This document shows positions 3,609 through 31,128 of a DNA stretch of 50,155 nucleotides, piece by piece. The DNA is taken from the IMG/VR virus record IMGVR_UViG_3300045125_000156; one strand, given 5' to 3'. Source of the stretch: a virus. The position numbers and the translations under genes are program-made. The notes beneath the pieces are model-generated. The model was not told the DNA's origin. It saw only the letters and a list, made by a program, of their open reading frames with translations, and made no database searches. Within the stretch, counting starts at the first letter, position 1. Every line of letters starts with the position of its first letter.

Positions 3609-5411
3609 CTAGGTACGCGCCGCCGGTGCCCCCGCTAAACCCCCGCCAGCCGCTCCAGCCAGCGCGCCAAGGCCTGCGCCTTGTAAAGCTCCCATGAGCC
3701 TCTCGTTTTCTTCTGCGTTAATTGCGCCTAGAACCGCTCCCGCGCCGGTCCCGTATAGCGCGCCGGGAATTGCTCCGCTAAGCGCTCCGAGCGCCCCGCC
3801 AGTAAGACGCACCCCCGCCGATTTTTCCGAAAGGGCGTCCACCATGCTGGCGTAGCTTGCCGCGTGTCGATTACCTCCCCCCATAAGCAACGGATTCATC
3901 GCGGTCTTCTCCACCAGCCCGTAATAGGCCAGCGTCGCCTTCTTGGCCATATCCGCCACGGCCTTCGCGGAGCCAGGAGCCGCGCCGACGACGAGGGGCG
4001 CCATGGGGTCTGCGCCGACGACGAACGGAGCGCCACTGCCTACGAGGCTGGGGGCTCGAACCGGCTCACTCGGGAGGAGCGTGCTCGCGTACGGGGCCGC
4101 CTGGGCCGCCTGGGCCGCCGGAGCGCCACTGCCTACGAGGCTGGGGGCTCGAACCGGCTCACTCGGGAGGAGCGTGCTCGCGTACGGGGCCGCCTGGGCC
4201 GCCTGGGCCGCCGGAGCGCCACTGCCTACGAGGCTGGGGGCTCGAACCGGCTCACTCGGGAGGAGCGTGCTCGCGTACGGGGCCGCCTGGGCCGCCTGGG
4301 CCGCCGGAGAGCCAGCAAACGCGTGATACGTTCCGCCGCCGAGAGCCCCGACCCCTGCACCGAGAAGGGCGCCTTTGAGAGCGTCCATCTTGACGTCAGG
4401 GGCGTCGGAGAGAAACGCTCCGCCCAAGCCGCCGCCGACTGCGCCGATTCCGGCGCCGGTAAGCATGCGCTGAGTGAGGGGCGAAAGGGCGATTTTGTAG
4501 GCGGCCGATTTTTGCGTAGGAGCTAGCATTGGGAGCATGGGCGGTTCCTGAAGGGGGTGGTCTGGAAGTGCCTGAAGCGTGGGCGGCGCCGCAGGGGCGC
4601 GCCGAGGCACGATCGGCGACGGCGGCTTCTTCAACATGTAATCGACAGCATTTTGAAAAACGGGGCTGTGTTTGCCCTCGTTTTTTAATTCAAGAAGTCC
4701 CTCACGGGAGAGGCGCGACATATCCCCAAGGTATGTTTCGGCCTGGTGGTAAGTATGGAAATTTTTGTCGGGAATTAGCCCTGCCGCCTCAAACGCGCGC
4801 ATATCCTCGTCAAGGCGTTTAAGGAAACCCCTCGGGGCGGGAGCGTCGGGGTAATTTAGTTTTCGATAATGTTCATAATCAGAGACCTCGTCTGGAATCC
4901 GCGTGGACTTAAGCGTCTGCGCTCGGCCACGAGGAGCTGCTGCCTGAGGAGCTACTGCCTGAGGAGCTGCTGCCTGAGGAGCTACTGCCTGAGGAGCTGC
5001 TGCCTGAGGAGCTACTGCCTGAGGAGCTGCTGCCTGAGGAGCTGCTGCCTGAGGAGCTGCTGCGTGCGGGAGAGAAGTCGGGGCGTTTCGAGGCAACGAC
5101 GCCGCTGCTGCCTGAGGAGCTGCTGCCTGAGGAGCTGCTGCGTGCGGGAGAGAAGTCCGGGCGTTTCGAGGCAACGACGCCGCTGCAGCCGCTTCTTGCG
5201 CAACCTGTTTCGCCTGGGGCGTTCCCTGCAATAGGTGATACCCCCGCCTCCAAGAAGCCCGGCCCCAAGGCCGATAGCGCCGCCGCGTAGTGCGCCGGCT
5301 AACTGTTGCCCCTCGCCCTCCGTGACACCGCCGACCAAAGCGCCGCCGAGCGCCGGCGCCGCCGCCTGCAAGGAGCCTTTGAGCCAAGGGGGATAGAGCT
5401 ACTTTCTTCAC
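3609..5411 (-). CDS. K-x-A motif / glycine-zipper repeat protein, probable head-packaged (internal virion) protein
   Basis: Starts MKKVALSPLAQRLL; internal KSAAYKIALSPLTQRML, EKTA, EKSA; most of these motifs precede GAGIGAVGGGLGG-type hairpins; low-complexity linkers. Confidence 0.65.
   Translation of the reverse strand: MKKVALSPLAQRLLAGGGAGARRRFGRRCHGGRGATVSRRTTRRRYRPWGRASWRRGYHLLQGTPQAKQVAQEAAAAASLPRNARTSLPHAAAPQAAAPQAAAASLPRNAPTSLPHAAAPQAAAPQAAAPQAVAPQAAAPQAVAPQAAAPQAVAPQAAAPRGRAQTLKSTRIPDEVSDYEHYRKLNYPDAPAPRGFLKRLDEDMRAFEAAGLIPDKNFHTYHQAETYLGDMSRLSREGLLELKNEGKHSPVFQNAVDYMLKKPPSPIVPRRAPAAPPTLQALPDHPLQEPPMLPMLAPTQKSAAYKIALSPLTQRMLTGAGIGAVGGGLGGAFLSDAPDVKMDALKGALLGAGVGALGGGTYHAFAGSPAAQAAQAAPYASTLLPSEPVRAPSLVGSGAPAAQAAQAAPYASTLLPSEPVRAPSLVGSGAPAAQAAQAAPYASTLLPSEPVRAPSLVGSGAPFVVGADPMAPLVVGAAPGSAKAVADMAKKATLAYYGLVEKTAMNPLLMGGGNRHAASYASMVDALSEKSAGVRLTGGALGALSGAIPGALYGTGAGAVLGAINAEENERLMGALQGAGLGALAGAAGGGLAGAPAART
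4027..4308. repeat. 3 x 93-bp tandem repeat (31 aa AAQAAQAAPYASTLLPSEPVRAPSLVGSGAP)
   Basis: ggagcgccactgcctacgagg begins at 4027, 4120 and 4213. Confidence 0.95.
4931..5185. repeat. 15-bp tandem repeat (QAAAP/QAVAP) plus a duplicated SLPRNA(P/R)TSLPHAAAP unit
   Basis: gaggagct(g/a)ctgcct repeated about 9 times from 4931, then two copies of a longer unit. Confidence 0.95.
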
Positions 5412-17040: not shown

Positions 17041-18977
17041 CCAGAGGTCTGGTCACGGGTAAGAACCACAGGCCCGACGCACCAGTGCTCAGGGTCCTGC
17101 TCTCTCGGGTGATCGCTGGAGATCCAGCAGTCACTCGGCTTCTTCAGAAGCTCTTTGATTTCCGTTGATTTCCCCGTTCACGGCGTCGTTCACAGCGTCC
17201 CTCCGGCGGCGTCACGGCTGCGGCCACGGCCTCACACACGGCGTCGTTCGCGGCGCCCCTCACGGCGCGGTTCACGGCGTTGTTCACGGCGTTGTTCACG
17301 CGCACCGCACGGCGTCGTGCCGGCCCTCCGGCGCCGTTCCGTCGCCTCCTGCGGCGCGGTTCACGGCGTTGTTACGTCATTCATTGATTTTCCTGTTCGC
17401 GGCGTCGTACACGGCGTCCCTCACGGCGCGGTCCACGGCGACGTCACGGCGGTCGTCCCGGCGACGTACACGGCGTCGTGCACGGCGTTCCGGCGCGGCC
17501 CACGGCGCGGTTCACGGCGCGTTCACGACGCCGTTCACGCATCGTCCACGGCGTCCCACACGTCGTGGCCACGGCGCGGTTGCGTCGCTCCTCACGGCGC
17601 CCCTCACGGCGGCGTTCACGTCATTCATTGATTTCCTCCTCTGCGGCGGCGTCTACGTCATTCACGATTTCCTCCCTCGGCGTCGTACACGGCGGCGTTC
17701 CGCTCTCGCGCGCGGCCTCGACGCGACCTCGTACACGGCGTCCCACGGCGTCGTTCACGGCGTCGTTCACGGCGCCGTTCACGGCGTCGTCCACGGCGCC
17801 CACGGCGTCGTCCACGTCACTCATTGATTTCCTCACCTCCGGCCTCCTCTACGGCGCCCCTCACGGCGTGGTCCACGGCGTCGTGCACGGCGCCCGCACA
17901 TGGCGTCCCTCACGGCGGCGTACACGGCGCCTTCACGGCGCCGTACGGCGCGGTTCACGGCGTTGTTCACGTCATTCATTGATTTTCCTGTTCACGGCGT
18001 CATTGCACGGCGTCCCTCACGGCGCGGTCCACGGCGACGTACACGGCGTCGTCCACGGCGTCGTACACGGCGTCCCTCACGGCGTCGTCCACGGCGCCCC
18101 TCACGGCGCGGTCCACGGCGACCCACACGGCGTCGTCCACGGCGTCGGCCACGTCATTCATTGATTTCCTCCCACGGCGTCGTCCACGGCGTAGTACACG
18201 GCACCCCTCACGGCGTCGTCCACGGCACCCTCACGGCGACGTCCACGGCGTCCATCATGTTGCCCGCCACTTCGCCCCACACGGCGTCGTTCACGGCGCA
18301 GTCCACGGCGACGTACACGGCGCCCTCACGGCGCCCCTCGCGACGTCGTTCACGTCATTCATTGATTTCCTCCCTCACGGCGCGGCTCACGGCGCGGCTC
18401 ACGGCGTCCACACGGCGTTGTCTACAGCGCCCCCACGGCGTCGTCCACGGCGGCGTTCGCGGCGTCGTTCACGGCGGCCCTCACCGGCGCGGTCCACGGC
18501 GCGGTCCACGGCGGCGTACACGGCGTCGGTCACGTCGCTCATTGATTACATCCCTCACGGCGCGGCCTCACGCGCGGCTCACGGCGTCGTACACGGCGGC
18601 GTTCACGGCGCGACTCACGGCGCGATTCACGGCGCGATTCACGGCGCGGTCCACCGCGCGTTCCACGGCGCCCCACACGACGTGGTCCACGGCGTCGTTC
18701 ATGGCGTCCCACACGGCGGCGTTCACGCCGCCGTTTACGGCGGCGTTCACGTCGGCGTTTACGGCGTCGTTCACGTCATTCATTGATTTCCTCCTTTACG
18801 GAGCCCCTCACGGCCTCCTCTACGTCGCCCCTCACGGTGCCCCACACGGCGTCCCATACGTCGCCCCTCACGGCGCCCCACGGCGTCGTCCACGGCGCCC
18901 TCACGGCGTCGTTCACGGCGCCCCTCACGGCGCGGTCCACGGCGACCCTCACGGCGCGGTTCACGGCGGCGGTCACG

Positions 18978-19178
18978 TCACTCGTTGATTTCCTCCTCTA
19001 CGGCGACGTACACGGCGTCGTACACGGCGGCGTTCACGGCGTCGTCCACGGCGCGGCTCACGGCGCGGCTCACGGCGCCCCACACGGCGTCGTCCACGGC
19101 GTCGTCCACGGCGTCGTACACGGCACCCCTCACGGCGCCCCTCGCGGCGCCCCTCACGGCGTCGTTCACGTCATTCAT
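18978..19178 (-). CDS. array unit mini-protein (66 aa, intact example)
   Basis: MNDVNDAVRGAARGAVRGAVYDAV...VAVEEEINE; RBS GAGGAGG lies in the previous unit's EEE codons. Confidence 0.75.
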   Translation of the reverse strand: MNDVNDAVRGAARGAVRGAVYDAVDDAVDDAVWGAVSRAVSRAVDDAVNAAVYDAVYVAVEEEINE

Positions 19179-19959
19179 TGATTTCCTCCTCTACGGCGAC
19201 GTACACGGCGTTGTCTACGGCGCCCACACGGCGTCGTACACGGCGCCCCACCCGGCGTCGTCCACGGCGCCCCACACGGCGTCCCTCACGGCGTCGTCCA
19301 CGGCGTCGTCCACGGCGTCGTACACGGCGGCGTACACGGCTGCGTCCACGGCGTCGGTCACGTCACTCATTGATTTCCTCCTCACGGCGCGGTTCACGGC
19401 GCCCCACACGGCGCCCCACGGCGTCCCACACGGCGTTGTTCACGGCGCCCCACACGACGCCGTACACGGCGTCGTCCACAGCGTCGTCCACGGCGGCCCT
19501 CACGGCGTCGTACACGGCGTCGTCCACGGCGCGCCTCACGGCGGCCCTCACGGCGTCGTTCACGGCTGCGTCCACGGCGTCGTACACGGAGCGGCTCGCG
19601 GCGCCGTTCACGTCACTCCATTGATTTCTCCCTCACGGCGCCCCTCGGCGCCCCACACGGCGTGCCACACGGCGTCGTTCACGGCGCCCCACACGGCGTC
19701 GTACACGGCGGCGTTCACGGCGTCGTTCACGGCGGCCCTCACGGCGCGGTCCACGGCGGCGTCCACGGCGTCGTACACGGCGGCGTCCACGGCGACCCTC
19801 ACGGCGTCGATCACGTCATTCATTGATTTCCTCCTTTACGGAGCCCCTCACGGCCTCCTCTACGTCGCCCCTCACGGCGCCCCACACGGCGTCGTCCACG
19901 GCGTCCTCACGGCGTCGTTCACGGCGCCCCTCACGGCGCGGTTCACGGCGGCGTTCACG

Positions 19960-20148
19960 TCACTCATTGATTTCCTCCCACACGGCCTCCTCTACGGTGC
20001 CCCTCACGGTGCCCCACACGGCGCCCCACACGGCGCCCCTCACGGCGTCGTCCACGGCCTCCCACACGGCGTCGTCCACGGCGCCCCTCACGGCGTCGTT
20101 CACGGCGCCCCTCACGGCGCGGTTCACGGCGGCGTTCACGTCACTCAT
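19960..20148 (-). CDS. array unit mini-protein (62 aa, intact example)
   Basis: MSDVNAAVNRAVRGAV...EEAVWEEINE. Confidence 0.75.
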   Translation of the reverse strand: MSDVNAAVNRAVRGAVNDAVRGAVDDAVWEAVDDAVRGAVWGAVWGTVRGTVEEAVWEEINE

Positions 20149-20717
20149 TGATTTCCTCCCACACGGCCTCCTCTACGGCGCCCCTCACGGTGCCCCACAC
20201 GGCGCCCACACGGCGCCCCACACGGCGTCGTACACGGCGCCCCACACGGCGTCGTCCACGGCGTCGTCCACGGCGTCGTACACGGCGGCGTACACGGCTG
20301 CGTCCACGGCGTCGGTCACGTCACTCATTGATTTCCTCCTCACGGCGCGGTTCACGGCGCCCCACACGGCGCCCCACACGGCGTCGTTCACGGCGCCCCA
20401 CACGGCGTCGTACACGGCTGCGTCCACGGCTCGCGTCCACGGCGTCGTACACGGCGTCGTCCACGGCGGCGTCCACGGCGGCGTTCACGTCATTCATTGA
20501 TTTCTCCTCACGGCGTCGTTCACGGCGCCCCACACGGCGACGTACACGGCGTCGTCCACGGCGTCGTACACGGCGCTCCACATGGCGTCCCTCACGGCGT
20601 CGCCCACGGCGCCCCACACGGCGTCGCCCACGGCGCGGCTCACGGCGCTCCTCACGGCGTCGTTCACGGCGCTCCTCACCGGCGTCGTTCACGGCGTTTT
20701 GCATGCCGCTTCCCACC

Positions 20718-21017
20718 TCATTTTCCATCGAGCTCCTCCCTCACGGCAGCGCGCACTGCGGTGTCAACCGCCACGACGAAGCCGTCGTCGGTCGTGCAAA
20801 GCGCTACCCTTTCACGCCCGCGTAATTGCGGAAAAAGAGCGACGTCTTCTTCTTCGACGCGCCACCAGCGAACGCCATCTTCCGAGAGCCCGTCTTCCCG
20901 TCGAATTGATCGAAGTACGGGACGTACGGTTCTTCCCCTTGATACTTGCCGGGGCGCCTTACTTCCTCGGCAAAAAAATCGACGTCCATGCGCTTCCTCC
21001 CACACGGCGGCCAGCAT
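20718..21017 (-). CDS. hypothetical protein coupled to the first array unit
   Basis: Its stop overlaps the ATG at 20728; ends AVRAAVREELDGK; true start may be 20989 (GGAGG RBS) with an indel. Confidence 0.45.
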   Translation of the reverse strand: MLAAVWEEAHGRRFFCRGSKAPRQVSRGRTVRPVLRSIRREDGLSEDGVRWWRVEEEDVALFPQLRGRERVALCTTDDGFVVAVDTAVRAAVREELDGK

Positions 21018-21144
21018 TCAGCTTTTCACGCCGTGGAAATGACCGCCGAAAGGCCGAACGCCGCGCCCAAGCACGCAATCCCTCACCCCATGTGAGAAAT
21101 TTCTTGGGCGCGGCGAGTCGGCTCTTCGGCCGAGAAACAGGTTG

Positions 21145-22168
21145 TTAGGTACGAACTTCCAGCTGGAGCTCATCCGGCTGGAGGCCGAAGGTCCAGGCGT
21201 TCGCCGCCCGGGCCGTTGTCATCTCCGCCGGCACCGGCAGGACGAAGGTCCTCCCCGTGCCGCAGAGCACCTTGAGGAACCGCGAACGGCTACCCTCAAG
21301 ATCGACTTCGAGGAGCACGCCGATCTGCGGATCGGCCGTCCGCATCGATCGTCGTCGGCTGCAGGAGGTCGAGCACCTTCTGCCAGCCGATGATCTCGGC
21401 CGCACATCGCCGGAGCTCGATGTTCTCGTGCTCCCAGCGCGACCCGAGGGTCGAGCCCCGAGGGGTTCTCGATCCACTCGCGAGGCACCCTCGTCCCTCG
21501 CCAGTAATGAAGGCACCAGCCGTCCGGCCACGAGATGGCCGGCCCCGTCTCGCCGTGCAGGCGGCCCTGCACGTCTCGCGTCAGAATGCACGGGCGCTCG
21601 GTAGCGACCGTGAATTCGTGGTGCGCCCACCACCACCCGCACGAAGAGTCGACGTCTTCGCGCGGGCCGACGGGGATGTCGGAGACGTCGAGGATGTCGC
21701 GGATGAACGTGGCCCACGCGGTGAATGAGCACCACCAGGCCCCGCCGCTGTAGCGGGACCAGGCGTTCCTCACCGCCGACGCCGGGTTGAGGCGCTGCAG
21801 CGCCTCTTCGCCGTCGTCACCCACGAGGGCCACCGCCGTGAGGACCTCGCGGATCACCCGCGTGACCTCCGGCCGGAGCGCTTCGTTGGTGACGAAGCGC
21901 GCGACGAACGCCGGCACGTGCTCGCGCACGTCGCCCTTGACGTTCTCCACGATCAGCGCGCTCGCCGGCGCGGCGAGCGCCGTCACGATCGGGGACCCCG
22001 ACCAGACGATCGCCTTGGGCGGCGTGAGCCTCGCCGCCTCGTAGTGGGCGATGATGCCGCGCTCAGCGCGCGGCCGGTCGGCCGGAGCCGTCGACAGGCC
22101 GACCTGGATGTACTTGTCGACCCAGCCGGCGATCTGGGCCTTTTGTGCGTCCGTGATATTGGTAATCA
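21145..22168 (-). CDS. DUF6745-domain protein (frameshifted)
   Basis: GLSTAPADRPRAE...IVWSGSP...CGWWWAHHEFTVATERP..LTRDVQGRLHGETGPAISWPDGWCLHYWRGTRVP...LKVLCGTGRTFVLPVP..TARAANAWTFGL. Confidence 0.85.
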
Positions 22169-22508
22169 TTTCAGTCCTCCACCGCCCGGAAACCTTCCGG
22201 GGTGTATTCACGCTGCCGACGAATCTCCCAGACGCCCGCCGCCAACATGACGGGGCGTGCGTGTCGATGAGGCCGTGCGTGCACGACCTCGCGCGGCTCA
22301 CTGAGCCGCAAGAAAAGCCTCAAGGGGTCCGGCCCCTTGAACAGTTCCACCCCTCCACGGGGAGGGTGTGGTGGTTGCCGTTGACGCTCAAAGCGACAAC
22401 GAATCGCCCACCCGTCGGGGCGACGGGGTTGAGGTTGCTGGGGAGTTCCGGAATTCTCCGGAACAACAGATCCCCTTGCGCTGCCATTGTCGAAATCATC
22501 ATCATCAT
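22165..22508 (-). CDS. QGD-motif small protein of the type commonly adjacent to DUF6745 (frameshifted)
   Basis: AAQGDLLFRRIPELP...GNHH...H...GVWEIRRQREY. Confidence 0.6.
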
Positions 22509-22514
22509 TCTCCT

Positions 22515-22694
22515 TCAATCGGTTCGTTCACGTCGCTCTGATCGTACCCCGTGAGAATTCTCGGGCCGATATCGCGACAGCTTTTCGCGTTTGCAATCTT
22601 CGCAAACGCGGCACAGAGGAATCCTCTGCGCGTCGTGAGCCCACCAGGAGGGCTTGGTCGACACGGTGCCACCTACACACAGGTGCTCACGCAT
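22515..22694 (-). CDS. small Cys-containing hypothetical protein
   Basis: MREHLCVGG...WWAHDAQRIPLCRVCEDCKREKLSRYRPE. Confidence 0.5.
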   Translation of the reverse strand: MREHLCVGGTVSTKPSWWAHDAQRIPLCRVCEDCKREKLSRYRPENSHGVRSERRERTD

Positions 22695-23745
22695 CCTTGT
22701 ACCCTTTTCTTTAATAATTTTCGACTGCGGGCGCGCCCAGGCCCCGCACGACACTTGGCAGACCGTTGACCAGCGGGTCTTCGCACTGAAAAGATCGACC
22801 CTATTTTTTATTTTTTCCACGCCCCCCTTGCGCCCCTTTTTGGGAGGGCTATAGTTCCTCTCGTTGACACGGTTGATGCCCCTCGTAGCCGAGTCGTCCG
22901 GTGAGGGTAGAGAGACACCAGCAGAACCCGTTTGCGGGATCATTTGGTCGATCGAAAGCCAGAAGCGCTTCTGGCTTGAGTGTCAGCTGGGGATCAGAGT
23001 CCCAAGACGGCGGCTGAGACAGCTCGGAGCGTCGAGAAGAAAGGTCAGTGCCCTAGGATCCAAGGGCCCTGGCCTTTCGCATTTCCTAGACCCCGGACTT
23101 CTGCGACGGGTGCAGCTCCCCCGAGCGCGGCTTGCCGTCGATCTGACGGTTGTACGCCTCCACCAGATCCAACGAGAAATCGTCTGGAATCCGGCACGAA
23201 TACCTCGAGGATCTGAAGCCCGTGCCGGGTCTTCCAGGGTAGGTGCCCGGGGCCTCCCCGTAGCGCACGTAGCGTACGAGCACGCTCCAGCCGCGCTCCT
23301 CCATCGACGCCTCAATCCCCTCGAACCACTCCTCTGGCGTCTCGTCCAGGAGTGGTTGCGATCACAAACTCATCGTCCTTGTCCATTCGGTTTCTCTTTC
23401 GGCTCCAGCCGATATGGCGTCAGATCCGCCTTCCGGGTTGATCTCCCAGAGCGCGACTTCGCGCTCGTGGATGTTCCTCTCCTCGTCGGAGTACTTGTAA
23501 CGGTTTCCCGTTTTCGTCAGTACCCCGCCATCGCGTAGCTCTGCGGAACACGGCTCCGAGCCAGTGAGCCCGGCCTTCGCCCGTGATGATCCCATCGGCG
23601 ATAAGCGCGTCCCACACTTCGCGGCTGTGCACCGTGAGCTTGCGGAGTGCGATCTTCACCGCGTAGTGCATCCCCCACTGGATGTGCAGGGCTTGGTGGC
23701 CTGGAAGCCTCTCCATGGCCGCCCGCGTGCCCGTACCGGCGTCGG

Positions 23746-23998
23746 TCACGGGCCCTCCTCTGTGGTCTGATCGATGGCGAACTCTTCGCCGACATCGACG
23801 AGCACCACGTCCATTCCCATGAAGCGCTCACGGCTACACAAGAGATCGACGAAGTCGTAGTGAAACGCCAGCCGACTTTTGTGCAGCGCCTCGTCCACGT
23901 CACGCCGTAGGCGGATTGTGTTCGGCGGTTGGCCGTGTTTCTTGGAATACGCATTCAGGGCCTGCTCGATGGCAGCCCCCACCTTGGTTGCATCCCAT
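23746..23998 (-). CDS. hypothetical protein
   Basis: GGAAGGA RBS; stop overlaps the next start. Confidence 0.45.
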
Positions 23999-24105
23999 GC
24001 CGTTTCCTTCCTAAGACGACGGCCCCGGAAACCTCACGTTGCCTGCCGTGTGGTGTCCGAGGCCGTCTGGGTTTAGGGCTCCCATGGGCAGACTATCAGC
24101 TTTCT

Positions 24106-24468
24106 TCAGAAAGCCAAGTCTTCCATGAAGTCGACGATCTCTTTGGCCAGACAGGTGTCCGGGTCGCCGCATTTCACCTGGTGAAAAAACACCAGGAGGT
24201 CGGCGGCCATGCTGGCCTTGTCGCGCCCGCCGGGCGAATCCCACATGCCGCCCGGCCGAACGGCCTCCTGGATGTCCGCAAAGAGCGCCCGCAGCTCTGC
24301 GTCTTTGCAAAGAGAAAGGTACATTCCCAAGCCTGTCGGCGCCGCCAGATGGCGCTGCCGCAGGCGGTTGATGTACGCGAGAGCCTCAAGTTTTTCGGCC
24401 CGCGTGTTGAAGGGGACCGTCCACCCCGGCTCGCGAAGCATGATGTCGGTCTGCCGTTCGGACAACAT
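24106..24468 (-). CDS. hypothetical protein
   Basis: Intact 120-aa ORF with a plausible RBS. Confidence 0.55.
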   Translation of the reverse strand: MLSERQTDIMLREPGWTVPFNTRAEKLEALAYINRLRQRHLAAPTGLGMYLSLCKDAELRALFADIQEAVRPGGMWDSPGGRDKASMAADLLVFFHQVKCGDPDTCLAKEIVDFMEDLAF

Positions 24469-24785
24469 AACGATACCTTTCTTCCGCGCTGCCCTCGAAC
24501 GAATCGTTCCAGGTTTGAACGTCGCGGAGATCTACGATCGTAAGGCCTGTTTGGGCCTTGAGAAGGCGCCAAAGGGTTTGGCGCGCTTTGAGCTGGAGGT
24601 CGTCGTCTTCGGTGAAGTGCTCGCCTTCCAACTCCAAAATGTTTCTTGGATCGAGACAGCGCAGTCCCCACACGGGGCTCTGGCCCTCGACCTCCCCGGC
24701 GTATTCGGGGATGAACGCTCCAATCACGCAGAAGCTATCGCCTTCACGATAGCTCCCGCGTATGAAGCGGTTTGTCCGACAACCC

Positions 24786-25317
24786 TTTGAGCCGCCGGAC
24801 AAAGAACTCCCAATCAGCCGGCAAGCCCCATCTCCTTTCTGCACGTGTGGCAGGTGACGAGCTCGTCGTCTGCCGCTGGCGGAGTGGGCCTCGACGCAGT
24901 CGAAGTACCGGCAGCGCAGGAGGTCCTGCGCCTTGTCGGCGCCAACGGCGGGCCACGGAACGTGGTTGGAGCTGTAGGTCGTTCCCCCACGGGGGACCTC
25001 CAGCGCGAACCCGTCCTTGTTGATGACCATGCGCGGCGAACACGGGACGAGGTGCTCGCCCTTGCCAGCGTCGAGCGCTTCGACGCGCATGAAGCACGTC
25101 ACCCTGACAGACGTCGGACCATTCATCCTCGTCTGTCAGGGCGCCTATGTGCAGGATGCGCGTGAATCTCTCTGGGTTGAAGCTCAGGTTGAGCATTCGC
25201 GCGTCGGAGAAGAGCCCTCGTAGCCGGGACACGTCAGCGTAAGAAACCGGCGTCCGCGCAGATCTCCGCGCAGACGCCATACGCGTTGATACGAAAAACA
25301 AAATACCGGTTGTCCAT
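24786..25317 (-). CDS. hypothetical protein (frameshifted)
   Basis: ATG 25317 with GGAGG RBS, downstream of a GGTATAAG promoter-like motif near 25355. Confidence 0.45.
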
Positions 25318-25739
25318 GGATTCCTCCAGAGCCCACACGATTGAAGGCAAGGGCTTATACCTGCAACGCGTTTGATTTTTAATCATGGCGCGTAACGTAC
25401 TCGCATGAACACGCACACGTTTCACCCACGCCGAAACTCGCAGCGCTGCGTCGGCGAATACGCACAGAGCGCTCGAGCACCGAAACAAAGGCGCAGAGCT
25501 ATTGGTGCTCGCCGTGATCAAGCACCTGTGCGCCGTCTTTACGAGTACGAGGTGCACACGCATCATCGCAGGGGTTCTGGGGTGCACGTCCTGGCGTACT
25601 GGTCAGAGTTTTTTAAACTAACCCCAGACGCCCGCACGACAGAAGTACGCGCCCGCCTTGCCTATGCCTGAGAGACAAAAGTAGACTTTTACGTATCCCC
25701 TCAACTGGAGCCGTTTCTCGAATGAACCTCGATAAGCTG

Positions 25740-25995
25740 ATGAAGAAGCTGCCCCCGGATTTGCCGACGACGTGGCGAGTCTGGGCGAGCCCGGATTGAA
25801 GGACGTTGCGCTGCAGGCGGAGACGAACATCCGCCGGGTGGAGCAGGAGCGCGAAGGAGACGAGCGGCTCTCCGGGGCCAAGGAGGTCGTGCGGGACCTG
25901 AATGGCCCTACCGCGATGCCATCAACGCGCAGCGCGAAGATCGCATACGTGCTTTATCTGTTGGACGAGCGGGGTAAGCTCCCGAAGCCACGTGA
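25740..25995 (+). CDS. hypothetical helical protein (frameshifted)
   Basis: KDVALQAETNIRRVEQEREGDERLSGAKEVVRDL...AKIAYVLYLLDERG. Confidence 0.5.
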
Positions 25996-26168
25996 AAAAG
26001 TTTCTCGTGGAAGACAAAAACAGAACCCTGCTTGGGGAGTTTCAAGACATTCTCGACGCCATGGAGTTCTGTAAGAGTCAGGAAGACAGTCTCGTCATCC
26101 GCGTCGTCGATGGAGAGCGGACGGACATGACGTATCGGATAAAGGCGAGGCAGAATTTCACGAAGTGA
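25992..26168 (+). CDS. hypothetical protein
   Basis: GTG start MKKFLVEDKN...; converges on the gene ending at 26172. Confidence 0.4.
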   Translation: MKKFLVEDKNRTLLGEFQDILDAMEFCKSQEDSLVIRVVDGERTDMTYRIKARQNFTK

Positions 26169-26171
26169 AAG

Positions 26172-28203
26172 TCACTCTTTCACTTCCAGCTTGCTGCGCT
26201 GTTTGATGGCCTTCGGCGGAATGAGCAGGGGGTGCGTCTGCTTGGCGATCATGTCCTTGACGCCAAGAGGCTTATAGGTGTGCTTGCCGATCTGATAGCC
26301 GATTGTCCCGCCCACCACGGGCCCGAGCAGAGCCGCCGCCATCCCCCGACCAGGGGTCCTCAGGTGCTTACCAATAGCCGGAATCAGCGGCAACAAATTT
26401 CCAGCAAGACTTCCGATACGCCAGCCCCTGAATTTGCGCGAGCGGTCTTGACGTTGTTGGTTTTTCTTCGTGACGTCCCCGGACGCCGCATAGCCCGCGA
26501 GTGTCATGTCGTTAGATACCTGATCCGCAAATGCGTTGACGTCACCGTTGAACTTTGTCTCGGTTTCGTAGCGCATGTGATCGACATCAAATTTATTCTT
26601 GAGCGTTATCCCCAGGGGTGCTCGTAATCGAGCGTCCGCGTACGACCTTTCTGGTCGACGCTCGTACCGCCCATCCGGGCAACAACACGCTCCAAAAACT
26701 CTTCATTGCTCAAATTTTTCGAAGAGCCAAACTTCCGCAAGGGCCCCATCGCCGAAGCCTCTTGAAGCGCGCCCGCAATCTGATTGCTGAAACGCTCCTT
26801 TTCGGCCGACATGTTCTTCATGTACTCTTCGACGCTCTTGGGATCATCCTGCGCCGTGAGCCAACGAAGGCCTTTCATCACAGGCTCACTGGGGAGCGTG
26901 GTGATGTACCGCATGACCTTCACCTTCCGCTCGTGCCCGGGCAGGTGCTCATGGCTCTTGTAGCGGATGCCGCGCCCGATAACCTGGTTGATGCGCGACT
27001 CGTTCCAATGCGGCTCCATCAACTGAATGGCCTTGGTGCCCTTGAGGTCCAAGCCCTCTGATCCCGCCCCGAAACCAGCAACACCGGGATTTTGCCAGAG
27101 TTGTAGTCTTTCACCATCTGGTCGCGCTGCTTTTTTGAAACCTCGCCGGTGAAGACGTGGTGCGCGATACCCGACCGCTGTAGTGCGCGGCTCATGGGCT
27201 TCAGGCCGGCGTCGAGGTAGTTCGAGTAAACAACACCTCGGAAATTCGGGTCCTTGTCGTGCATCTCCTTGAGGTGCTTGGCCATCAGCTGAATCTTCGG
27301 CGTGTGTTTGTCCTCTTCTTCCTCCGTCATCCCCTGGACATAAGGCCGTGGCGTATTGGAGGCCTGCCGAAGTGCGCCTTGAAAGGCGTTGAGGTCGCGA
27401 GACTCTTGTTTGTTCAGGGGCAGCCCGGCTCGAATTTTTGCGCGCAGATACCAGGGCATTTTATTAGAGTGGTATTCGTACATCGCGTGCTGCTTGTCCG
27501 ACATCGGGACCGCGTGCTCGACGTCTTCCCGATCAGGAAAACCCGTGCCGCCGCCCGAATGAACATCCACATAGCCCTTAGCCGCACGGATCAAAGCCTC
27601 TCGGTTGATGAGTTTGGGGCGCGTTACCGTGTCGACGGGGTGCCCCAGGAGGCGGCCCTTGATGCGCTCTAAAAAAGGCGCTTCGACCGTTTCTTCCCCG
27701 ACGAAGGTCTTTTTGAACAGCGCCGGGTCATCCGGCAAAACCTTCTTCCCCGCCGCCGTGTTGAGCAGCATGGCGAGGTCGTAGGGCTGGTTGTAGACCG
27801 GCGTGCCCGTGAGCAGAAGCCGAGCCTTGGCCTTGGCTACCTGCCCGGCGACGTCTTTGGAGATCAGCGTCCCGGCGTTACGCGCCCGGTGTGCTTCGTC
27901 CATGATGGCGAGCGCGGCAAGATTGATGTTCTTGTCGCGGACGGCCTTTTCGTAAGAGCGAATGCGCGCGTCCTCGGGAACTTCATCGAGGTGCTTTTCG
28001 AGCTCTTTCTCGTAGTTAGCGACGAGCGGCGCGGGTACGACAGCCTCGATGGGTAGGCCAAGGGCGTCAGCGGCGGCGATGGACGAAAGCGTTTTACCGC
28101 TGCCAACGCCGTGTGCCACGAGCAACCCACCGGAAGCCTTGAGCTTGTCGATTACCCGCTGCTGGTGGGGCTGCAACGGGGTGCGAACGTCCGCGAGTTT
28201 CAC
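26172..28203 (-). CDS. SF2 (SNF2-like) helicase with N-terminal KLA motif and probable glycine-zipper C-terminal extension (frameshifted)
   Basis: AHGVGSGKT, IMDEAH, LTGTP, (G)LDLKG, EPHWN..RINQVIGRGIRYKSH; ORF 26172-26576 may be its tail or a separate gene. Confidence 0.85.
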
Positions 28204-28227
28204 GGAGTGAAGTATAGCAGTATGGGC

Positions 28228-28260
28228 AAAAAAAGAGGCCAGCCTGTTACAGCTGGCCTC
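28228..28260 (-). terminator. intrinsic terminator
   Basis: gaggccagc-tgtaaca-ggctggcctc-ttttttt. Confidence 0.8.
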
Positions 28261-28419
28261 CCGCCCTCGCCACGAGTGCTACATGCACATCATGGCGAGG
28301 ACGACGACCCCACGCGCCGAAGAGCACGACGCTCTCGACGACGAAGAGGGCCAGGTTCCTTGCATTGAGCTCAGGTTCCATAGGGGCCTCCTATGTACTT
28401 ATACCCGAATTGACCTCAG

Positions 28420-28632
28420 CTATTCGAACTTCAGTCGCCCGAACAGGGCCTGGATTTCGGCGGGGTCGCACTTGAAGATGATCTCCGGGCGCCCCTTCTC
28501 CCCCTCCCCTCGGGGGACTTTCCCCGCCTCCTTGAGCACCTTCGCCTCTCGTAGGAACTTGAATAGCCCGTAGGCAACTTCCCGTTCCACCTTGTTCAAC
28601 TGCACGAACTTTTTCAGCGTGATTTCTGCCAT
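28420..28632 (-). CDS. small winged-helix-like protein
   Basis: GGAGG RBS; KFLREAKVLKEAGKV....KGRPEIIF. Confidence 0.55.
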   Translation of the reverse strand: MAEITLKKFVQLNKVEREVAYGLFKFLREAKVLKEAGKVPRGEGEKGRPEIIFKCDPAEIQALFGRLKFE

Positions 28633-29280
28633 GGTTCCTCCGCGCGATTATCTCATCAAATCGCGCCTTTTCAAGTCTCAAGGGCGATCCGCGCCCCTTG
28701 CTCTGATACCCTGCTGCCCGTAACCACCGCCTCAACGCGTCAGGGCTGACCTTGTGGCGCGCGGCGGCCTCTTGAAGGGTCTCCCAATCCAGCCAGCGCT
28801 CAAAGGCTTCCCGCGCCTCGTCCCACTCGACGATTCGGTGCGGCTGCTCGCCCTCGAACTTGCGGAGGCGCAGCCTTACCCCCATCTGCTCCAGCACGCG
28901 CGTAACCGTGTCCCAGTGGTACCCGAGCTTGCGCGCGGCCTGCGCCACGGTGACATACCCCTGCCACCGGTCGGGCAATCCCAGGCGCCCGGCTCGGGCG
29001 TAGATGGAACACCAGGAGCGGCCGGGAAGTTTATGCCGCAAAAGACGCATGGAAGTGTCGGTCCAATAGTTGACCAGCACGGCGTCTTCTTCGGGCGTCC
29101 AGAACTTTCGCTGCCGCATACCCAAGGCCCGCGCTCGACGGTGAATGGCTTGTCGGTCGCGCGCAGGAAGCTTGTTCAGAAGCCGCGCCCAGACCTTGAA
29201 GTGCTCGGGCCTGGGCGTTGACTTCAATTGGAGGTAGTACCGCCGGACAATACGATCTTCTTTCGGCGGTCCAACGATTT
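28625..29280 (-). CDS. multi-HTH DNA-binding protein (Myb-like repeats + HTH)
   Basis: FWTPEEDAVL...LPGRSWCSIYARAGRLGL; VTVAQAARKLGY; TLQEAAARHKVSPDALRRWL. Boundaries approximate. Confidence 0.6.
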
Positions 29281-29527
29281 ACCAATCTTCTGGATTTCGT
29301 TGAAAGTACTTGATCTCCTTGAGCTTCTCCTTTAGTTCTCTTTCCGCCAGTTCCCATGTGAACCCCGTCTCCTCGATGAGGCGCTCCTCGGTGACAGATT
29401 CCCCGCAGACGTCTACCAGCTTGTCGATGCGCGGGCCATTGTCACCCTCGTCGTAAATGGCGACGAAGGCCTGCCCGTCCAAAAAGACGCAGTCTCTCTG
29501 CATATTCACCCCGTGAAAGAAGGCCGG

Positions 29528-29601
29528 TCGGCTCACCGGGACTTGAACCCGGGACTTCCCGATTATAAGTCGGGGGCTCTAACCAACTGAGCTATGAGCC
29601 G
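29528..29601 (-). tRNA. tRNA-Ile (anticodon UAU)
   Basis: Cloverleaf; anticodon loop CT-TAT-AA; GGTTCAAGTCC T-arm. Confidence 0.9.
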
Positions 29602-29604
29602 TTA

Positions 29605-29685
29605 TGCGAGCGGCGGGATTCGAACCCGCACGCCTTTCGGCAAGGGGTTTTAAGCCCCCGGCGTCTACCCTTCCGCCACGCTCGC
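29605..29685 (-). tRNA. tRNA-Leu (UAA)
   Basis: Long variable arm; loop CT-TAA-AA. Confidence 0.9.
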
Positions 29686-29689
29686 GAGA

Positions 29690-29760
29690 TTCAGGCGCTA
29701 GGATTCGAACCTAGATAGCGGGAACCAAAACCCCGCGTCCTGCCGTTAGACGACGCCTGA
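29690..29760 (-). tRNA. tRNA-Gln (UUG)
   Basis: U1 start; loop TT-TTG-GT. Confidence 0.8.
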
Positions 29761-29761
29761 G

Positions 29762-29834
29762 TGGACCTGACCGGGATCGAACCGGTGACATCCAGCTTGC
29801 AAAGCTGGCGCTCTCCCAACTGAGCTACAGGCCC
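29762..29834 (-). tRNA. tRNA-Ala (UGC)
   Basis: Loop TT-TGC-AA; G3:U70 pair in the acceptor stem. Confidence 0.9.
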
Positions 29835-29841
29835 TGAAGAT

Positions 29842-29913
29842 TGCGCGAGACAGGGATCGAACCTGCGACCCGGAGTGTGTAAGACTCCTGCTCTGCCGCT
29901 GAGCTACCCGCGC
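29842..29913 (-). tRNA. tRNA-Val (UAC)
   Basis: Loop CT-TAC-AC. Confidence 0.9.
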
Positions 29914-29916
29914 AAA

Positions 29917-29988
29917 AGCTGATGGTGGGATTTGAACCCGCAACCGCCGGTTTACAAAACCGGAGCTCTACCGTTGAGCTACATCAGC
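29917..29988 (-). tRNA. tRNA-Thr (UGU)
   Basis: Loop TT-TGT-AA. Confidence 0.9.
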
Positions 29989-30050
29989 AAAGCCCCGTAG
30001 TTGCCATCGTACGAGGCGCGACGACTCCTCCCTCGTTTGAGGGTGGCAAA

Positions 30051-30124
30051 TCAAGGCGGCAGGATTTGAACCTGCGACATCCAGCTCCCAAAGCTGGTGC
30101 ACTACCCGACTGTGCTACGCCCTG
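30051..30124 (-). tRNA. tRNA-Pro (UGG)
   Basis: Loop TT-TGG-GA. Confidence 0.9.
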
Positions 30125-30303
30125 GTTTTTATGGCTTCTCGGAGCGCGGCATGCGCCGTGTCAAGACGCTCAATGTTACCATCCGAGAGGCTCAAGGAAA
30201 GAGCTTCTCGGTATGCTACGAAAAGATCTGCGACGGATCGTCGCGCCGTCTCTTGCGGCCGATCGATCGGCGCGCCGTTCGCGTCCCATTCGGACGTTAT
30301 CAC
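30115..30303 (-). CDS. small hypothetical protein inside the tRNA cluster
   Basis: GTGA overlap with the upstream ORF; GGAGG RBS. Confidence 0.4.
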   Translation of the reverse strand: MITSEWDANGAPIDRPQETARRSVADLFVAYREALSLSLSDGNIERLDTAHAALREAIKTRA

Positions 30304-30461
30304 CGGACGCCCTCCGCCTGAATCGCCATCACCAGTTCGTAGGACAGCGCGGCAATCTCGACGAGGGTGTCGTGGTCGAGCTTGTCGATCTCGCTAGGGT
30401 CTCCCTCTTCGATGATTTCCGCGATTTTTCCGGCGATATCCTGAATCTCTTCCGTGTACAC
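30300..30461 (-). CDS. small acidic protein, paralog 1
   Basis: GAGG RBS, GTG start; MYTEEIQDIAGKIAEIIEEGDPSEIDKL... Confidence 0.7.
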   Translation of the reverse strand: MYTEEIQDIAGKIAEIIEEGDPSEIDKLDHDTLVEIAALSYELVMAIQAEGVR

Positions 30462-30472
30462 ATCTACCTCGG

Positions 30473-30553
30473 TGCGAGCGAGAGGACTTGAACCTCCACA
30501 CCTTGCGATACCAGATCCTAAGTCTGGCGCGTCTGCCATTCCGCCACGCTCGC
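30473..30553 (-). tRNA. tRNA-Leu (UAG)
   Basis: Loop CT-TAG-GA; long variable arm. Confidence 0.9.
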
Positions 30554-30561
30554 GTTGATAC

Positions 30562-30634
30562 AGTGCCCCAGCGGGGATCGAACCCGCGTCGACGGAGTGA
30601 AAAACCGCCATCCTAACCGCTAGACGATGGGGAC
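30562..30634 (-). tRNA. tRNA-Glu (UUC)
   Basis: Loop TT-TTC-AC; acceptor stem slightly imperfect (possible read error). Confidence 0.8.
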
Positions 30635-30639
30635 CTAGC

Positions 30640-30798
30640 CTAATCGCTCTCCGCTTGAATCGTCATGGCCAGCTCATAAGCCAGCATGGCAACTTTGACG
30701 AGAGTGTTGTGGCCAAGCTTGTCGATCTCGTCGGGGTCGTCTTCTTCAATGATCTCCGCGATATTTTCAGCAAGCTCTTCAATTTCTTCTAAATACAT
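30640..30798 (-). CDS. small acidic protein, paralog 2
   Basis: GAGGT RBS; MYLEEIEELAENIAEIIEEDDPDEIDKL... Confidence 0.7.
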   Translation of the reverse strand: MYLEEIEELAENIAEIIEEDDPDEIDKLGHNTLVKVAMLAYELAMTIQAESD

Positions 30799-30820
30799 GA
30801 CCACCTCGGGGTGCGTCAAG

Positions 30821-30891
30821 TTCGGTCGCCGGGACTCGAACCCCAATCGCGGGAGCCAAAATCCCGCGTCCTGCCATTAGACGACGCCCGA
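30821..30891 (-). tRNA. tRNA-Gln (UUG), second copy
   Basis: Loop TT-TTG-GC. Confidence 0.85.
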
Positions 30892-30895
30892 TCAG

Positions 30896-30977
30896 TGCGA
30901 GCGGAGGGGTTGAACCCTCACGCCTTTGCGGGCAGCGGATTTTGAGTCCGCCGCGTCTGCCATTCCGCCACGCTCGC
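30896..30977 (-). tRNA. tRNA-Leu (CAA)
   Basis: Loop CT-CAA-AA; long variable arm. Confidence 0.85.
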
Positions 30978-31055
30978 TAAGTGCCCCGATTCGGTCTGCG
31001 CTCGGGGCCCCACGCGTTTTGTCAGAGAAGTGTGGGGGCACGTCTCTGCGACCGA

Positions 31056-31128
31056 TGGGTCGTCCGGGACTTGAACCCGGAGCCAACGGATTAAAAGTCC
31101 GCTGCTCTACCAATTGAGCTAACGACCC
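31056..31128 (-). tRNA. tRNA-Lys (UUU)
   Basis: Loop CT-TTT-AA. Confidence 0.92.

What the first reader, a model, noticed from the sequence alone, without database searches (positions are those of the whole stretch)
17160..20728. Tandem array of about 19 translationally coupled tetrapeptide-repeat mini-genes
SEEN: 3.6 kb of 12-bp repeats is interrupted by a conserved junction (minus strand GAGGAAATCA ATG A[A/G] TGA CGTG) at about 17382, 17626, 17663, 17822, 17977, 18159, 18360, 18540, 18781, 18983, 19176, 19368, 19619, 19821, 19965, 20146, 20326 and 20495. The junction does three jobs: it ends the previous peptide (EEINE*), it supplies the Shine-Dalgarno (GAGGAGG from the EEE codons), and it starts the next peptide (MNDVN/MSDV) with an 8-nt overlap. 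The cleanest junction spacings are 12n+1 (169, 181, 193, 241), as needed for whole tetrapeptides plus a frame shift. Each product of about 50-80 aa is x-A-V-y, with A-V nearly invariant and combinatorial variation at x (D/G/R/A/E/V) and y (N/Y/W/R/D/S). INFERENCE: this is a poly-cistronic library of variable amphipathic mini-proteins (decoys or sponges for host defence sensors, or subunits of a polymer), amplified and diversified by recombination. I know of no described system with this architecture.
Basis: partly seen in the sequence, partly recalled or inferred. Interest (0 to 1): 0.93.

Follow-up and report, generated by a model that had tools for sequence, protein, structure and literature searches.

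The report
Phage mini-gene library of helical repeats
A large uncultured lake-water phage carries about 19 back-to-back tiny genes, each encoding a free-standing copy of a fast-changing four-amino-acid helical repeat that related phages build into one unstudied protein (DUF6745) encoded next door, so one virus may make many versions of one protein complex.

Summary
Window 17150-20728 (minus strand) is a 12-bp-period array cut by 18 conserved junctions into 19 units. The ideal unit is ATG-AAT/AGT-GAC-GTG, then n x (x-A-V-y), then a 13-nt tail, so spacing is 12n+1. The tail ends one peptide (EEINE-TGA), supplies GGAGG and overlaps the next ATG by 8 nt.

The window comes from an indel-rich assembly, and only 2 of 19 units read cleanly. 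A clean relative (L037, flanks about 92% identical) has 24 of 24 intact mini-genes. There, 23 of 23 spacings are 3n+1 and 24 of 25 starts follow a GGAGG-type motif.

The array lies directly downstream of a phrog_27831 partner gene and a DUF6745 gene. Many DUF6745 relatives carry the same tetrad tract, sometimes x-A-V-y itself, inside the protein. This core has only a degenerate, non-repetitive relic. A syntenic pair shows the swap: tract in cis with no mini-genes, versus no tract with flanking mini-genes. A complex model scores 0.83 for mini-protein on core (best control 0.00).

Best reading: an expressed library of detachable repeat helices for one core. The function is unknown. No paper mentions DUF6745, but this scan has noted similar arrays on other phage DNA.

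The parts
22171..22508 (-). Partner gene: small His-motif protein, orthologue of L037:8179-8520 (phrog_27831). In the window it is interrupted by private indels.
   Evidence: Coordinates come from alignment to L037. The L037 orthologue hits phrog_27831 at E 1.2e-10. The window's translation contains a stop, and indels lie at 22349, 22266 and 22255.
21145..22169 (-). DUF6745 core gene without a repetitive tetrad tract. It has only a degenerate helical relic at about residues 66-140. The window copy is split over three frames.
   Evidence: PF20530 scores 65 bits in one frame and 23 bits in another. The intact 340-aa orthologue P0002 (91% identical) scores 107 bits. Window-private insertions lie at 21433 and 21334. 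The linker keeps a lag-4 V/I/L periodicity.
20718..20989 (-). First gene of the chain: a small globular N-domain followed by a short tetrad tail (..AVDTAVRAAVREELDGK). Its stop overlaps the first mini-gene's ATG by 11 nt. The window copy is frameshifted at 20896 and lacks about 150 nt that L037 has.
   Evidence: (142-aa orthologue at L037:9698-10126). The indel at 20896 appears in all four runs.
17150..20728 (-). The whole mini-gene array: 19 units (one a 37-nt stub) of M-[NS]-D-V-(x-A-V-y)n-[ERKW]-E-E-I-N-E.
19960..20148 (-). Intact mini-gene, 62 aa, MSDVN..WEEINE.
18978..19178 (-). Intact mini-gene, 66 aa, MNDVN..EEEINE.
19168..19190 (-). Example junction GAGGAGGAAATCAATGAATGACGT. It combines the acidic tail codons (which also form GGAGG), the TGA stop and the next ATG, with an 8-nt overlap in the +1 frame.
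20318..20340 (-). Variant junction with a 12-nt tail (AGGAGGAAATCA). It fuses two units in frame (AVRRKSMSDV). The same variant with the same neighbouring 12-mers recurs at 19360-19382, which marks a higher-order duplication.
17150..17980 (-). Distal units 14-18. These hold many indels and substitutions and include a 37-nt stub at 17629-17665. They are either older decaying units or a worse-assembled stretch.

Best explanation
The array is a poly-cistronic set of about 19 mini-genes (at least 24 in a close relative). Each encodes one long alpha-helix built from x-A-V-y tetrads.

Shown:
- Every unit has its own GGAGG and ATG.
- Every unit ends in an acidic EEINE tail whose codons form the next unit's ribosome-binding site.
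- The stop overlaps the next start, so each gene sits in the +1 frame of the previous one.
- The units stay open in accurate sequence.
- They vary almost only at the first two codon positions of x and y.
- They turn over much faster than the flanks.

Shown by comparison:
- The same tetrad tract, sometimes x-A-V-y itself, lies inside many DUF6745 proteins, between the N- and C-domains.
- The DUF6745 gene beside this array has only a non-repetitive relic there.
- In a syntenic pair, the tract sits either in cis without mini-genes or in trans as mini-genes.

Inferred: the mini-proteins are detached tracts that dock in trans onto the DUF6745 core, possibly with its phrog_27831 partner. One infection would then produce many alternative core-helix complexes instead of the single tunable variant that a cis tract gives.

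By analogy only: the module acts in a phage-host arms race, like the repeat-tuned counter-defence protein gp54 of mycobacteriophage Tweety. The biochemical activity of DUF6745 is unknown.
For: - Anatomy of units and junctions.
- Clean relative L037: 24 of 24 mini-genes intact, 394 tetrads (A 77%, V 89%), 23 of 23 spacings 3n+1, SD-like motif at 24 of 25 starts.
- Almost no synonymous variation: Ala GCC 97% in the array against 39% in flanking genes, Val GTG 86% against 34%. Meanwhile x and y take 10 or more residues each.
- No unit-to-unit orthology between the window and L037, although the flanks are about 92% identical.
- Module context: partner phrog_27831, then PF20530 core, then the array.
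- Tract in cis: 58 of the 169 nearest family members examined carry one at about residue 60-80. It is x-A-V-y in P0022 (55% identical), P0040, P0046, P0051, P0075 and P0123.
- Mini-genes recur beside repeat-less cores at 91%, 71% and 50% core identity (L037, L041, L042/L043).
- Natural swap: L049 has the tract in cis and no mini-genes. Syntenic L042 has no tract and 2-3 mini-genes.
- Folds: the mini-protein alone is one helix, residues 2-65, pLDDT 94. The core has pLDDT 95.
- Complex model: ipSAE 0.83 median of three runs (0.85, 0.35, 0.83), best of 3 controls 0.00. That mark was reached by 58 of 80 solved complexes and 2 of 110 mismatched pairs. Partner pLDDT was at least 60 and the runs share contacts. 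My own alignments were used, so the counts hold only roughly. No solved fold resembles the core, so a pass from memory is unlikely.
Against: - No expression data of any kind.
- Binding is a model, not a measurement, and one of three runs scored only 0.35.
- The window's own copies of the core, the partner and most units are frameshifted. The claim that they are intact rests on relatives and on the view that the indels are assembly errors.
- The core is not truly tract-less. It keeps a frozen lag-4 relic, so 'replacement in trans' may be too simple.
- Complementarity is not universal. The repeat-less cores in L044/L045 and L048 have no x-A-V-y mini-genes.
- The function of DUF6745 is unknown, and the arms-race role rests on analogy with an unrelated protein.
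Confidence: 0.6

Rival explanations
1. The mini-proteins are real and translated but act on their own, for example as decoys or sponges for host sensors or as self-assembling helical subunits. Their position beside DUF6745 would only reflect descent from its tract.
For: They have their own starts and stops and fold as a complete helix alone. Copy number (2-3 up to 24 or more) is uncoupled from the single core gene. The core keeps its own relic tract.
Against: The link to the module persists down to 50% core identity. Cis and trans forms are complementary in the syntenic pair. The complex model passes its controls. No test of self-assembly or of host targets was possible.
Confidence: 0.2
2. The array is a by-product of runaway duplication of a recombination-prone 12-bp repeat, or a store of unexpressed cassettes. 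The open frames would have little or no function of their own.
For: There are higher-order duplications and fast turnover. The window's distal units are degenerate. Low synonymous diversity shows that the repeats are young or homogenised.
Against: L037 has 4.7 kb with 24 of 24 ORFs open, no frame-breaking indel and no TAG at y, although 84 Tyr/Trp codons lie one step from a stop. The SD, ATG and stop are kept at every junction. The design is kept in three lineages with different junction sequences (EEINE with an 8-nt overlap, KELE with a 4-nt overlap). No repetitive recipient tract exists in the core to receive cassettes.
Confidence: 0.1
3. The array encodes one long protein, made by programmed +1 frameshifting at each GAA-TGA-C junction (as in prfB) or by readthrough.
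For: A GGAGG lies upstream of an in-frame TGA followed by C, and the next frame is +1. Two window junctions are fused in frame.
Against: GGAGG lies 8 nt before the would-be shift codon and 6 nt before the ATG. From general knowledge of prfB, that is initiation spacing, not the roughly 3 nt that stimulates a +1 shift. GAA to AAT gives poor re-pairing. Every junction keeps an ATG. Variant junctions (EEINECRE, 17-nt overlap; KELE, ATGA overlap) keep the stop and start but not a shift site.
Confidence: 0.05
4. The array is an assembly or concatemer artefact, or a dead locus in this strain.
For: The window is indel-rich, short-read assemblies cannot cross the array, and the unit count in a noisy long-read contig is uncertain.
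Against: An independent JGI contig carries 4.8 kb of intact array at the same place. Contigs from four studies stop at the same edges, 17201 and 20764, and hold array fragments. Indels are as frequent in neighbouring unrelated genes.
Confidence: 0.04

Closest known systems
DUF6745 (Pfam PF20530 / phrog_31813) proteins with an internal tetrapeptide tract and a phrog_27831 partner. Examples: P0022 (x-A-V-y tract), GenBank MW202476.1 UOF77368.1 (x-S-S-L tract), distant homologues in Microcystis phage Ma-LMM01 and M. abscessus prophage prophiGD102-1.
   Same: Same partner and core genes. Same tetrad design, with two fixed and two variable positions in a 12-bp unit. Same helical character. The tract sits between the N- and C-domains.
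   Different: Here the repetitive tract is not in the core. It is encoded 19 to 24 or more times as separate, translationally chained mini-genes, and the core keeps only a frozen relic. No member of the family has a known function or a paper.
Mycobacteriophage Tweety gp54 (also Che8 gp57, PMC gp51): a tetrapeptide-repeat, mutationally tunable counter-defence protein.
   Same: A 12-bp unit with two fixed residues. [quoted passage not shown] Copy number differs between relatives (PMC2884959). Changes in repeat number retune activity against the Phrann gp29/gp30 defence (PMC9262239).
   Different: gp54 is one protein with unique N- and C-domains and A-A-x-y repeats. A tblastn of the core against phage records gave no Tweety hit. 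Here many free helices are made at once, rather than one tract being tuned by mutation.
Translationally coupled overlapping gene chains (ATGA or 8-nt stop/start overlaps) in phage operons.
   Same: The stop of one gene overlaps the start of the next, with the SD inside the upstream coding sequence.
   Different: Here the whole junction (tail, SD, stop, start, N-cap) is itself a repeated cassette. It forces a +1 frame step at every one of about 20 successive genes.
Earlier notes of this scan on other phage DNA ('detached DUF6745 repeat mini-gene library', e.g. e1-5669455, e1-5679444, e1-5666595).
   Same: Repeat-less DUF6745 core, partner gene, chained tetrad mini-genes, and a complex model that docks a mini-protein on the core (AI notes, not independent evidence).
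   Different: Those arrays use other tetrads (QV, SV, Gln/Trp-rich), apparently in other phages; I did not inspect their loci. Here the tetrad is x-A-V-y in a phage of about 62% G+C, and a syntenic cis/trans pair was found.

Membership tests
DUF6745 module (PF20530 core + phrog_27831 partner) | PF20530 domain above Pfam's gathering score | tested here: met
   The window ORF scores 65.2 bits against a cut-off of 27, although the gene is split. The intact orthologue P0002 scores 107 bits.
DUF6745 module (PF20530 core + phrog_27831 partner) | Adjacent small His-motif partner gene (phrog_27831) | tested here: met
   L037:8179-8520 hits at E 1.2e-10 and maps to window 22171-22508. Similar partner proteins, recognised by eye from shared His motifs, lie in L041, L042, L048, L049 and L050. 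The window copy contains a stop.
DUF6745 module (PF20530 core + phrog_27831 partner) | Repetitive tetrapeptide tract inside the core, between the N- and C-domains (present in many members, not all) | tested here: not met
   The core has a non-repetitive linker of about 75 aa, with only lag-4 V/I/L periodicity. The tract is present in 58 of the 169 nearest family members examined.
Tweety gp54-like tunable tetrapeptide-repeat proteins | One protein with unique N- and C-terminal domains flanking 15-48 A-A-x-y repeats | tested here: not met
   The mini-proteins are 46-85 aa with 4-6-residue caps and x-A-V-y units. The definition is taken from PMC2884959 and PMC9262239.
Tweety gp54-like tunable tetrapeptide-repeat proteins | 12-bp unit with invariant third codon positions and variation at first and second positions of two residues | tested here: met
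Tweety gp54-like tunable tetrapeptide-repeat proteins | Sequence homology to gp54 | tested here: inconclusive
   A tblastn of the core against 50,697 phage records gave no Tweety, Che8 or PMC hit. The mini-proteins were not compared directly, because low complexity makes such a search unreliable.
Tweety gp54-like tunable tetrapeptide-repeat proteins | Counter-defence activity that changes with repeat number | not testable with these tools
   This needs infection assays.
Translationally coupled overlapping genes | Stop codon overlapping the next start, with an SD 5-9 nt upstream of that start | tested here: met
   12 of 18 window junctions meet it. In L037, 24 of 25 starts have an SD-like motif and all genes overlap by 8 or 17 nt. 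Coupling itself has not been measured.
Diversity-generating retroelement (DGR) variable region | Reverse transcriptase plus template repeat, with adenine-specific substitutions | not tested
   No RT appeared among the 20 window ORFs scanned. Variation at x and y involves all four bases. No systematic search was made.

The most novel reading that the evidence does not exclude
A previously undescribed way for a virus to diversify a protein. A hypervariable helical segment is cut out of its host protein and amplified into a co-expressed library of 20 or more interchangeable subunits. These plug back into the one conserved DUF6745 core, so every infected cell holds a panel of variant complexes. 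This would be standing diversity by gene amplification, rather than by mutation (Tweety gp54) or retro-mutagenesis (DGRs). It could be used to meet variable host defences or targets.
Probability: 0.4. Interest if true: 0.9.

Novelty: new variant of a known kind. Interest (0 to 1): 0.78.

Why it matters
DUF6745 is a very large family found in phages and prophages: 7,952 cluster representatives at E <= 0.001. It has no paper and no known function. Its tetrad tracts are among the fastest-changing coding repeats seen in phages.

This locus and its relatives give a natural experiment. The same tract occurs either built into the core or as 2 to 24 or more separate mini-genes. That suggests the tract may work as a module that need not be covalently joined to the core. 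It offers a direct handle for binding and structure studies with small, easily made helices. It also hints at a library strategy for phage-host conflict that differs from point mutation, repeat-number tuning or DGRs.

It also carries a practical warning. Such arrays break short-read assemblies and are garbled in noisy long-read ones, so they are probably under-reported.

Tried and rejected
- Junction-motif scans: viral contigs gave 0 hits. Genome contigs gave 4 and metagenome contigs 30, all single chance hits with no 12-bp periodicity nearby.
- A D-A-V-x triple pattern in viral contigs gave L001, an unrelated short linker on the other strand, and L002 (see Noticed in passing).
- blastn of the array and the flank against phage records found no match.
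- No whole genome is held for this window.
- A protein search with a window mini-protein gave no hit. This is uninformative, because the intact L037 and L042 mini-proteins looked up are not in that collection.
- Pfam and PHROGs on the mini-proteins gave only sub-threshold, composition-driven hits such as Gly-zipper and a connector family.
- Foldseek of the core against the PDB gave nothing at E <= 0.001.
- No RNA holder is listed among the sequencing runs, so nothing can be said about expression.
- Promoter and terminator scans found nothing above chance within the array.
- Plus-strand reading (HGVV / TAxx frames): long ORFs exist because the repeat has G/C at third positions in several frames. 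They lack SD and ATG, change register mid-ORF, and all neighbouring genes lie on the minus strand. Rejected.
- The +1 frameshift polyprotein reading is rejected; see Rival explanations.
- One-to-one unit orthology between the window and L037 was not found, except the first unit and one WGEVAG-MMDAV unit.
- Repeat-less cores P0006 (L044/L045) and P0026 (L048) have no x-A-V-y mini-genes. P0025 (L047) sits on too short a contig and P0027 had no DNA. The cis/trans complementarity is therefore a tendency seen in a handful of loci, not a rule.
Full report
**What is in the window.** On the minus strand, 17150-20728 is a single 12-bp-period array. TRF reports 296 copies at 67% matches. The conserved motif GAAATCAATGARTGACGT occurs 16 times with up to 3 mismatches, against 0.04 expected by chance. 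Two further copies have an indel or a GTG start.

Cutting each unit after every CCGT[GA] shows the design. A unit is ATG AAT/AGT GAC GTG, then n perfect 12-mers NNN-GCC-GTG-NNN, then a 13-nt tail GAGGAGGAAATCA. Its length is therefore 12n+1. Across the tail the upstream frame reads E-E-I-N-E-TGA. The same bases contain GGAGG 6 nt before the next ATG, which lies in the +1 frame and overlaps the stop by 8 nt. The local junction is of this type in 12 of 18 cases. Three junctions have a 12-nt tail. Two of them have identical neighbouring 12-mers at 20328 and 19370, so they belong to a higher-order duplication, and they fuse units in frame. Two junctions have an 11-nt tail and one is ambiguous.

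**Sequence quality.** Only two units (19960-20148 and 18978-19178) are clean from start to stop. The rest carry about 35-40 single-base indels, many in G runs such as TGGGGC to TGGGC.

The neighbouring genes are broken in the same way:
- The DUF6745 domain is split over frames.
- The partner gene contains a stop.
- Against clean relatives, the flank 20764-26170 shows 57 gap openings in 5.4 kb. Two clean relatives of similar divergence show 20 in 6.3 kb between them.
- The window's indels at 20896 and 21035 are contradicted by L037 and by contigs from four lake-water runs of four studies.

I conclude that the window, which comes from a 149-kb contig, is an indel-rich assembly. Most in-unit frameshifts are errors. 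I cannot exclude real decay, especially in distal units 14-18 (17150-17980), which are much worse than the rest.

**A clean relative settles the frame question.** The DUF6745 protein has a 91%-identical relative, P0002. One of its contigs, L037 (JGI, 14.9 kb), runs 4.8 kb into the array. There the order is:
- partner gene (113 aa);
- intact DUF6745 (340 aa);
- a 142-aa protein with a small N-domain and a degenerate tetrad tail;
- 24 complete mini-genes of 46-85 aa, all open and all of the form M-[NS]-D-V-(x-A-V-y)n-[RK]-E-E-I-N-E.

All 23 start-to-start spacings are 3n+1 and 21 are 12n+1. A GGAGG-type motif precedes 24 of 25 starts. Some junctions have lost the first TGA and stop 9 nt later (EEINECRE, 17-nt overlap), but they keep both stop and start.

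Short-read contigs from four studies end at the array edges, 17201 and 20764, and hold array fragments. A 130-kb JGI contig ends 25 nt beyond the DUF6745 stop, just before the 142-aa gene and the array. The array is real and it breaks assemblies.

**How the array evolves.** Over 394 tetrads in L037, position 2 is Ala in 77% and position 3 is Val in 89%. Position x is mostly D, G, R, N, E or A, and y is mostly N, D, R, Y, W, G or S. Variation sits at codon positions 1 and 2 of x and y, and third positions are nearly fixed. Ala is GCC in 97% of cases against 39% in flanking genes. Val is GTG in 86% against 34%. So there is almost no synonymous drift but wide amino-acid variety. No TAG occurs at y, although 84 Tyr or Trp codons lie one step from a stop.

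Apart from the first unit and one unit with a WGEVAG-MMDAV signature, window units have no clear L037 counterpart, although the flanks are about 92% identical. This is the pattern described for Tweety gp54 (PMC2884959).

**Context: a DUF6745 module.** Directly upstream on the same strand lie a phrog_27831 partner gene (window 22171-22508) and a PF20530 core (21145-22169). An exhaustive search with P0002 finds 7,952 representatives at E <= 0.001. Of the 169 family members I inspected, 58 carry a tetrapeptide tract starting near residue 60-80, between the N- and C-domains. The tetrads differ between members (x-S-V-y, x-S-L-y, x-Q-V-y, x-A-T-y). They are x-A-V-y in P0022 (55% identical to P0002), P0040, P0046, P0051, P0075 and P0123. 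A GenBank phage (MW202476.1) has an x-S-S-L tract.

The core next to this array, and its relatives P0003 and P0005, have a non-repetitive helical linker of about 75 residues at that place. The linker still shows lag-4 V/I/L periodicity, reached by at most 5 of 2,000 shuffles. It is a frozen relic rather than a clean deletion.

**Conservation of the arrangement.**
- At 71% core identity (L041) the module is followed by the N-domain gene and diverged mini-genes before the contig ends.
- At 50% (L042/L043, core P0005) one x-A-V-y mini-gene lies between partner and core. One and a half more lie just after the core, with a different tail (KELE) and a 4-nt ATGA overlap.
- L049 looks syntenic with L042: the partner proteins and the downstream genes resemble each other closely by eye, and the cores are 53% identical. 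Its core P0022 carries about 23 x-A-V-y tetrads in cis, and it has no mini-genes.
- Two other cis-tract loci (L050, L046) also lack mini-genes.
- Two repeat-less cores (L044/L045, L048) have small neighbouring genes that are not tetrad repeats. The complementarity is therefore suggestive, not a rule.

**Structure models.** The core folds with pLDDT 95.2. No solved structure resembles it at E <= 0.001. A 66-aa mini-protein alone is one continuous helix, residues 2-65, pLDDT 94.

A complex model of core plus mini-protein scores ipSAE 0.83 as the median of three runs (0.85, 0.35, 0.83). The best of three controls scores 0.00. The tool's mark was reached by 58 of 80 solved complexes and 2 of 110 mismatched pairs. 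Partner pLDDT was at least 60 and the runs share contacts. My own alignments were used, so these counts hold only roughly. The contacts involve the N-domain helices and core residues 60-75 and 130-170. This supports binding but does not show it.

**Reading.** Shown: a real array of separately initiated, overlapping mini-genes for variable tetrad helices, kept open in accurate sequence, evolving fast, and attached to a DUF6745 module whose relatives carry the same tract in cis. Inferred: the helices act in trans on the core, giving many complexes per infection. By analogy only: a role in phage-host conflict, as for Tweety gp54, where repeat number tunes counter-defence (PMC9262239). gp54 is not a homologue by the one test I ran. 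The rivals are an independent decoy or polymer role, junk or silent cassettes, a frameshift polyprotein, and an artefact. They are weighed in their own sections.

**Novelty.** No paper in the searchable library mentions DUF6745 or PF20530. Earlier AI notes of this scan report the same kind of detached mini-gene library beside repeat-less DUF6745 genes on other DNA, in several other uncultured phages. Those notes gave me the lead. I re-tested each step here on this lineage.

This window adds three things: an x-A-V-y lineage in a lake-water phage of about 62% G+C, a copy-number range from 2-3 to 24 or more, and a syntenic cis/trans pair. It also shows that the 'repeat-less' core keeps a fossil tract.

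Noticed in passing
window 26170-26904 (compare L037:3033-4549, L041:3636-5152): The C-terminal half of the SNF2 helicase (686 aa in L037, 394-aa ORF here) and the following 250-aa gene do not align. The window has about 730 nt of other sequence there, with two ORFs that hit no family.
   Followed up: partly
window 22788-26170 versus 26904-30539: Indel density against the clean relative L041 is very uneven: 51 gap openings in 3.4 kb against 13 in 3.6 kb. Assembly or polishing quality seems to vary along the contig.
   Followed up: partly
window 29526-31128: A cluster of 12 tRNA genes on the minus strand. Eleven have T at the first anticodon position, including Ile-TAT and Leu-TAA.
   Followed up: partly
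L002:9-539 (IMGVR_UViG_3300012210_000016): A single ORF with about 29 [D/A]-A-[V/A]-[G/R/W] tetrads, followed by only about 25 further residues and no DUF6745 domain. It may be a different family of tetrad-repeat phage proteins. It lies at a contig end.
   Followed up: no
L044:5818-8102 and L045:3351-5635: A repeat-less DUF6745 core (P0006, 39% identical) is followed by a chain of about 60-80-aa genes, some overlapping. They are not tetrad repeats. They may be an analogous but diverged small-gene set.
   Followed up: no
L037:9698-10126; window 20718-20989: The first gene of the chain has a small globular N-domain fused to a degenerate tetrad tail. The window's copy lacks about 150 nt of that tail. 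The L041 orthologue (94 aa) has no tail.
   Followed up: partly
window 4026-4314 and 4931-5190: Near-perfect 93-bp (x3.1), 15-bp (x8.9) and 78-bp (x2.1) tandem repeats lie inside a 600-aa ORF that has a weak glycine-zipper hit.
   Followed up: no
L048:2305-2683: Two small genes downstream of another repeat-less DUF6745 core share an ELHKVNA motif, so they are small paralogues of unknown meaning.
   Followed up: no
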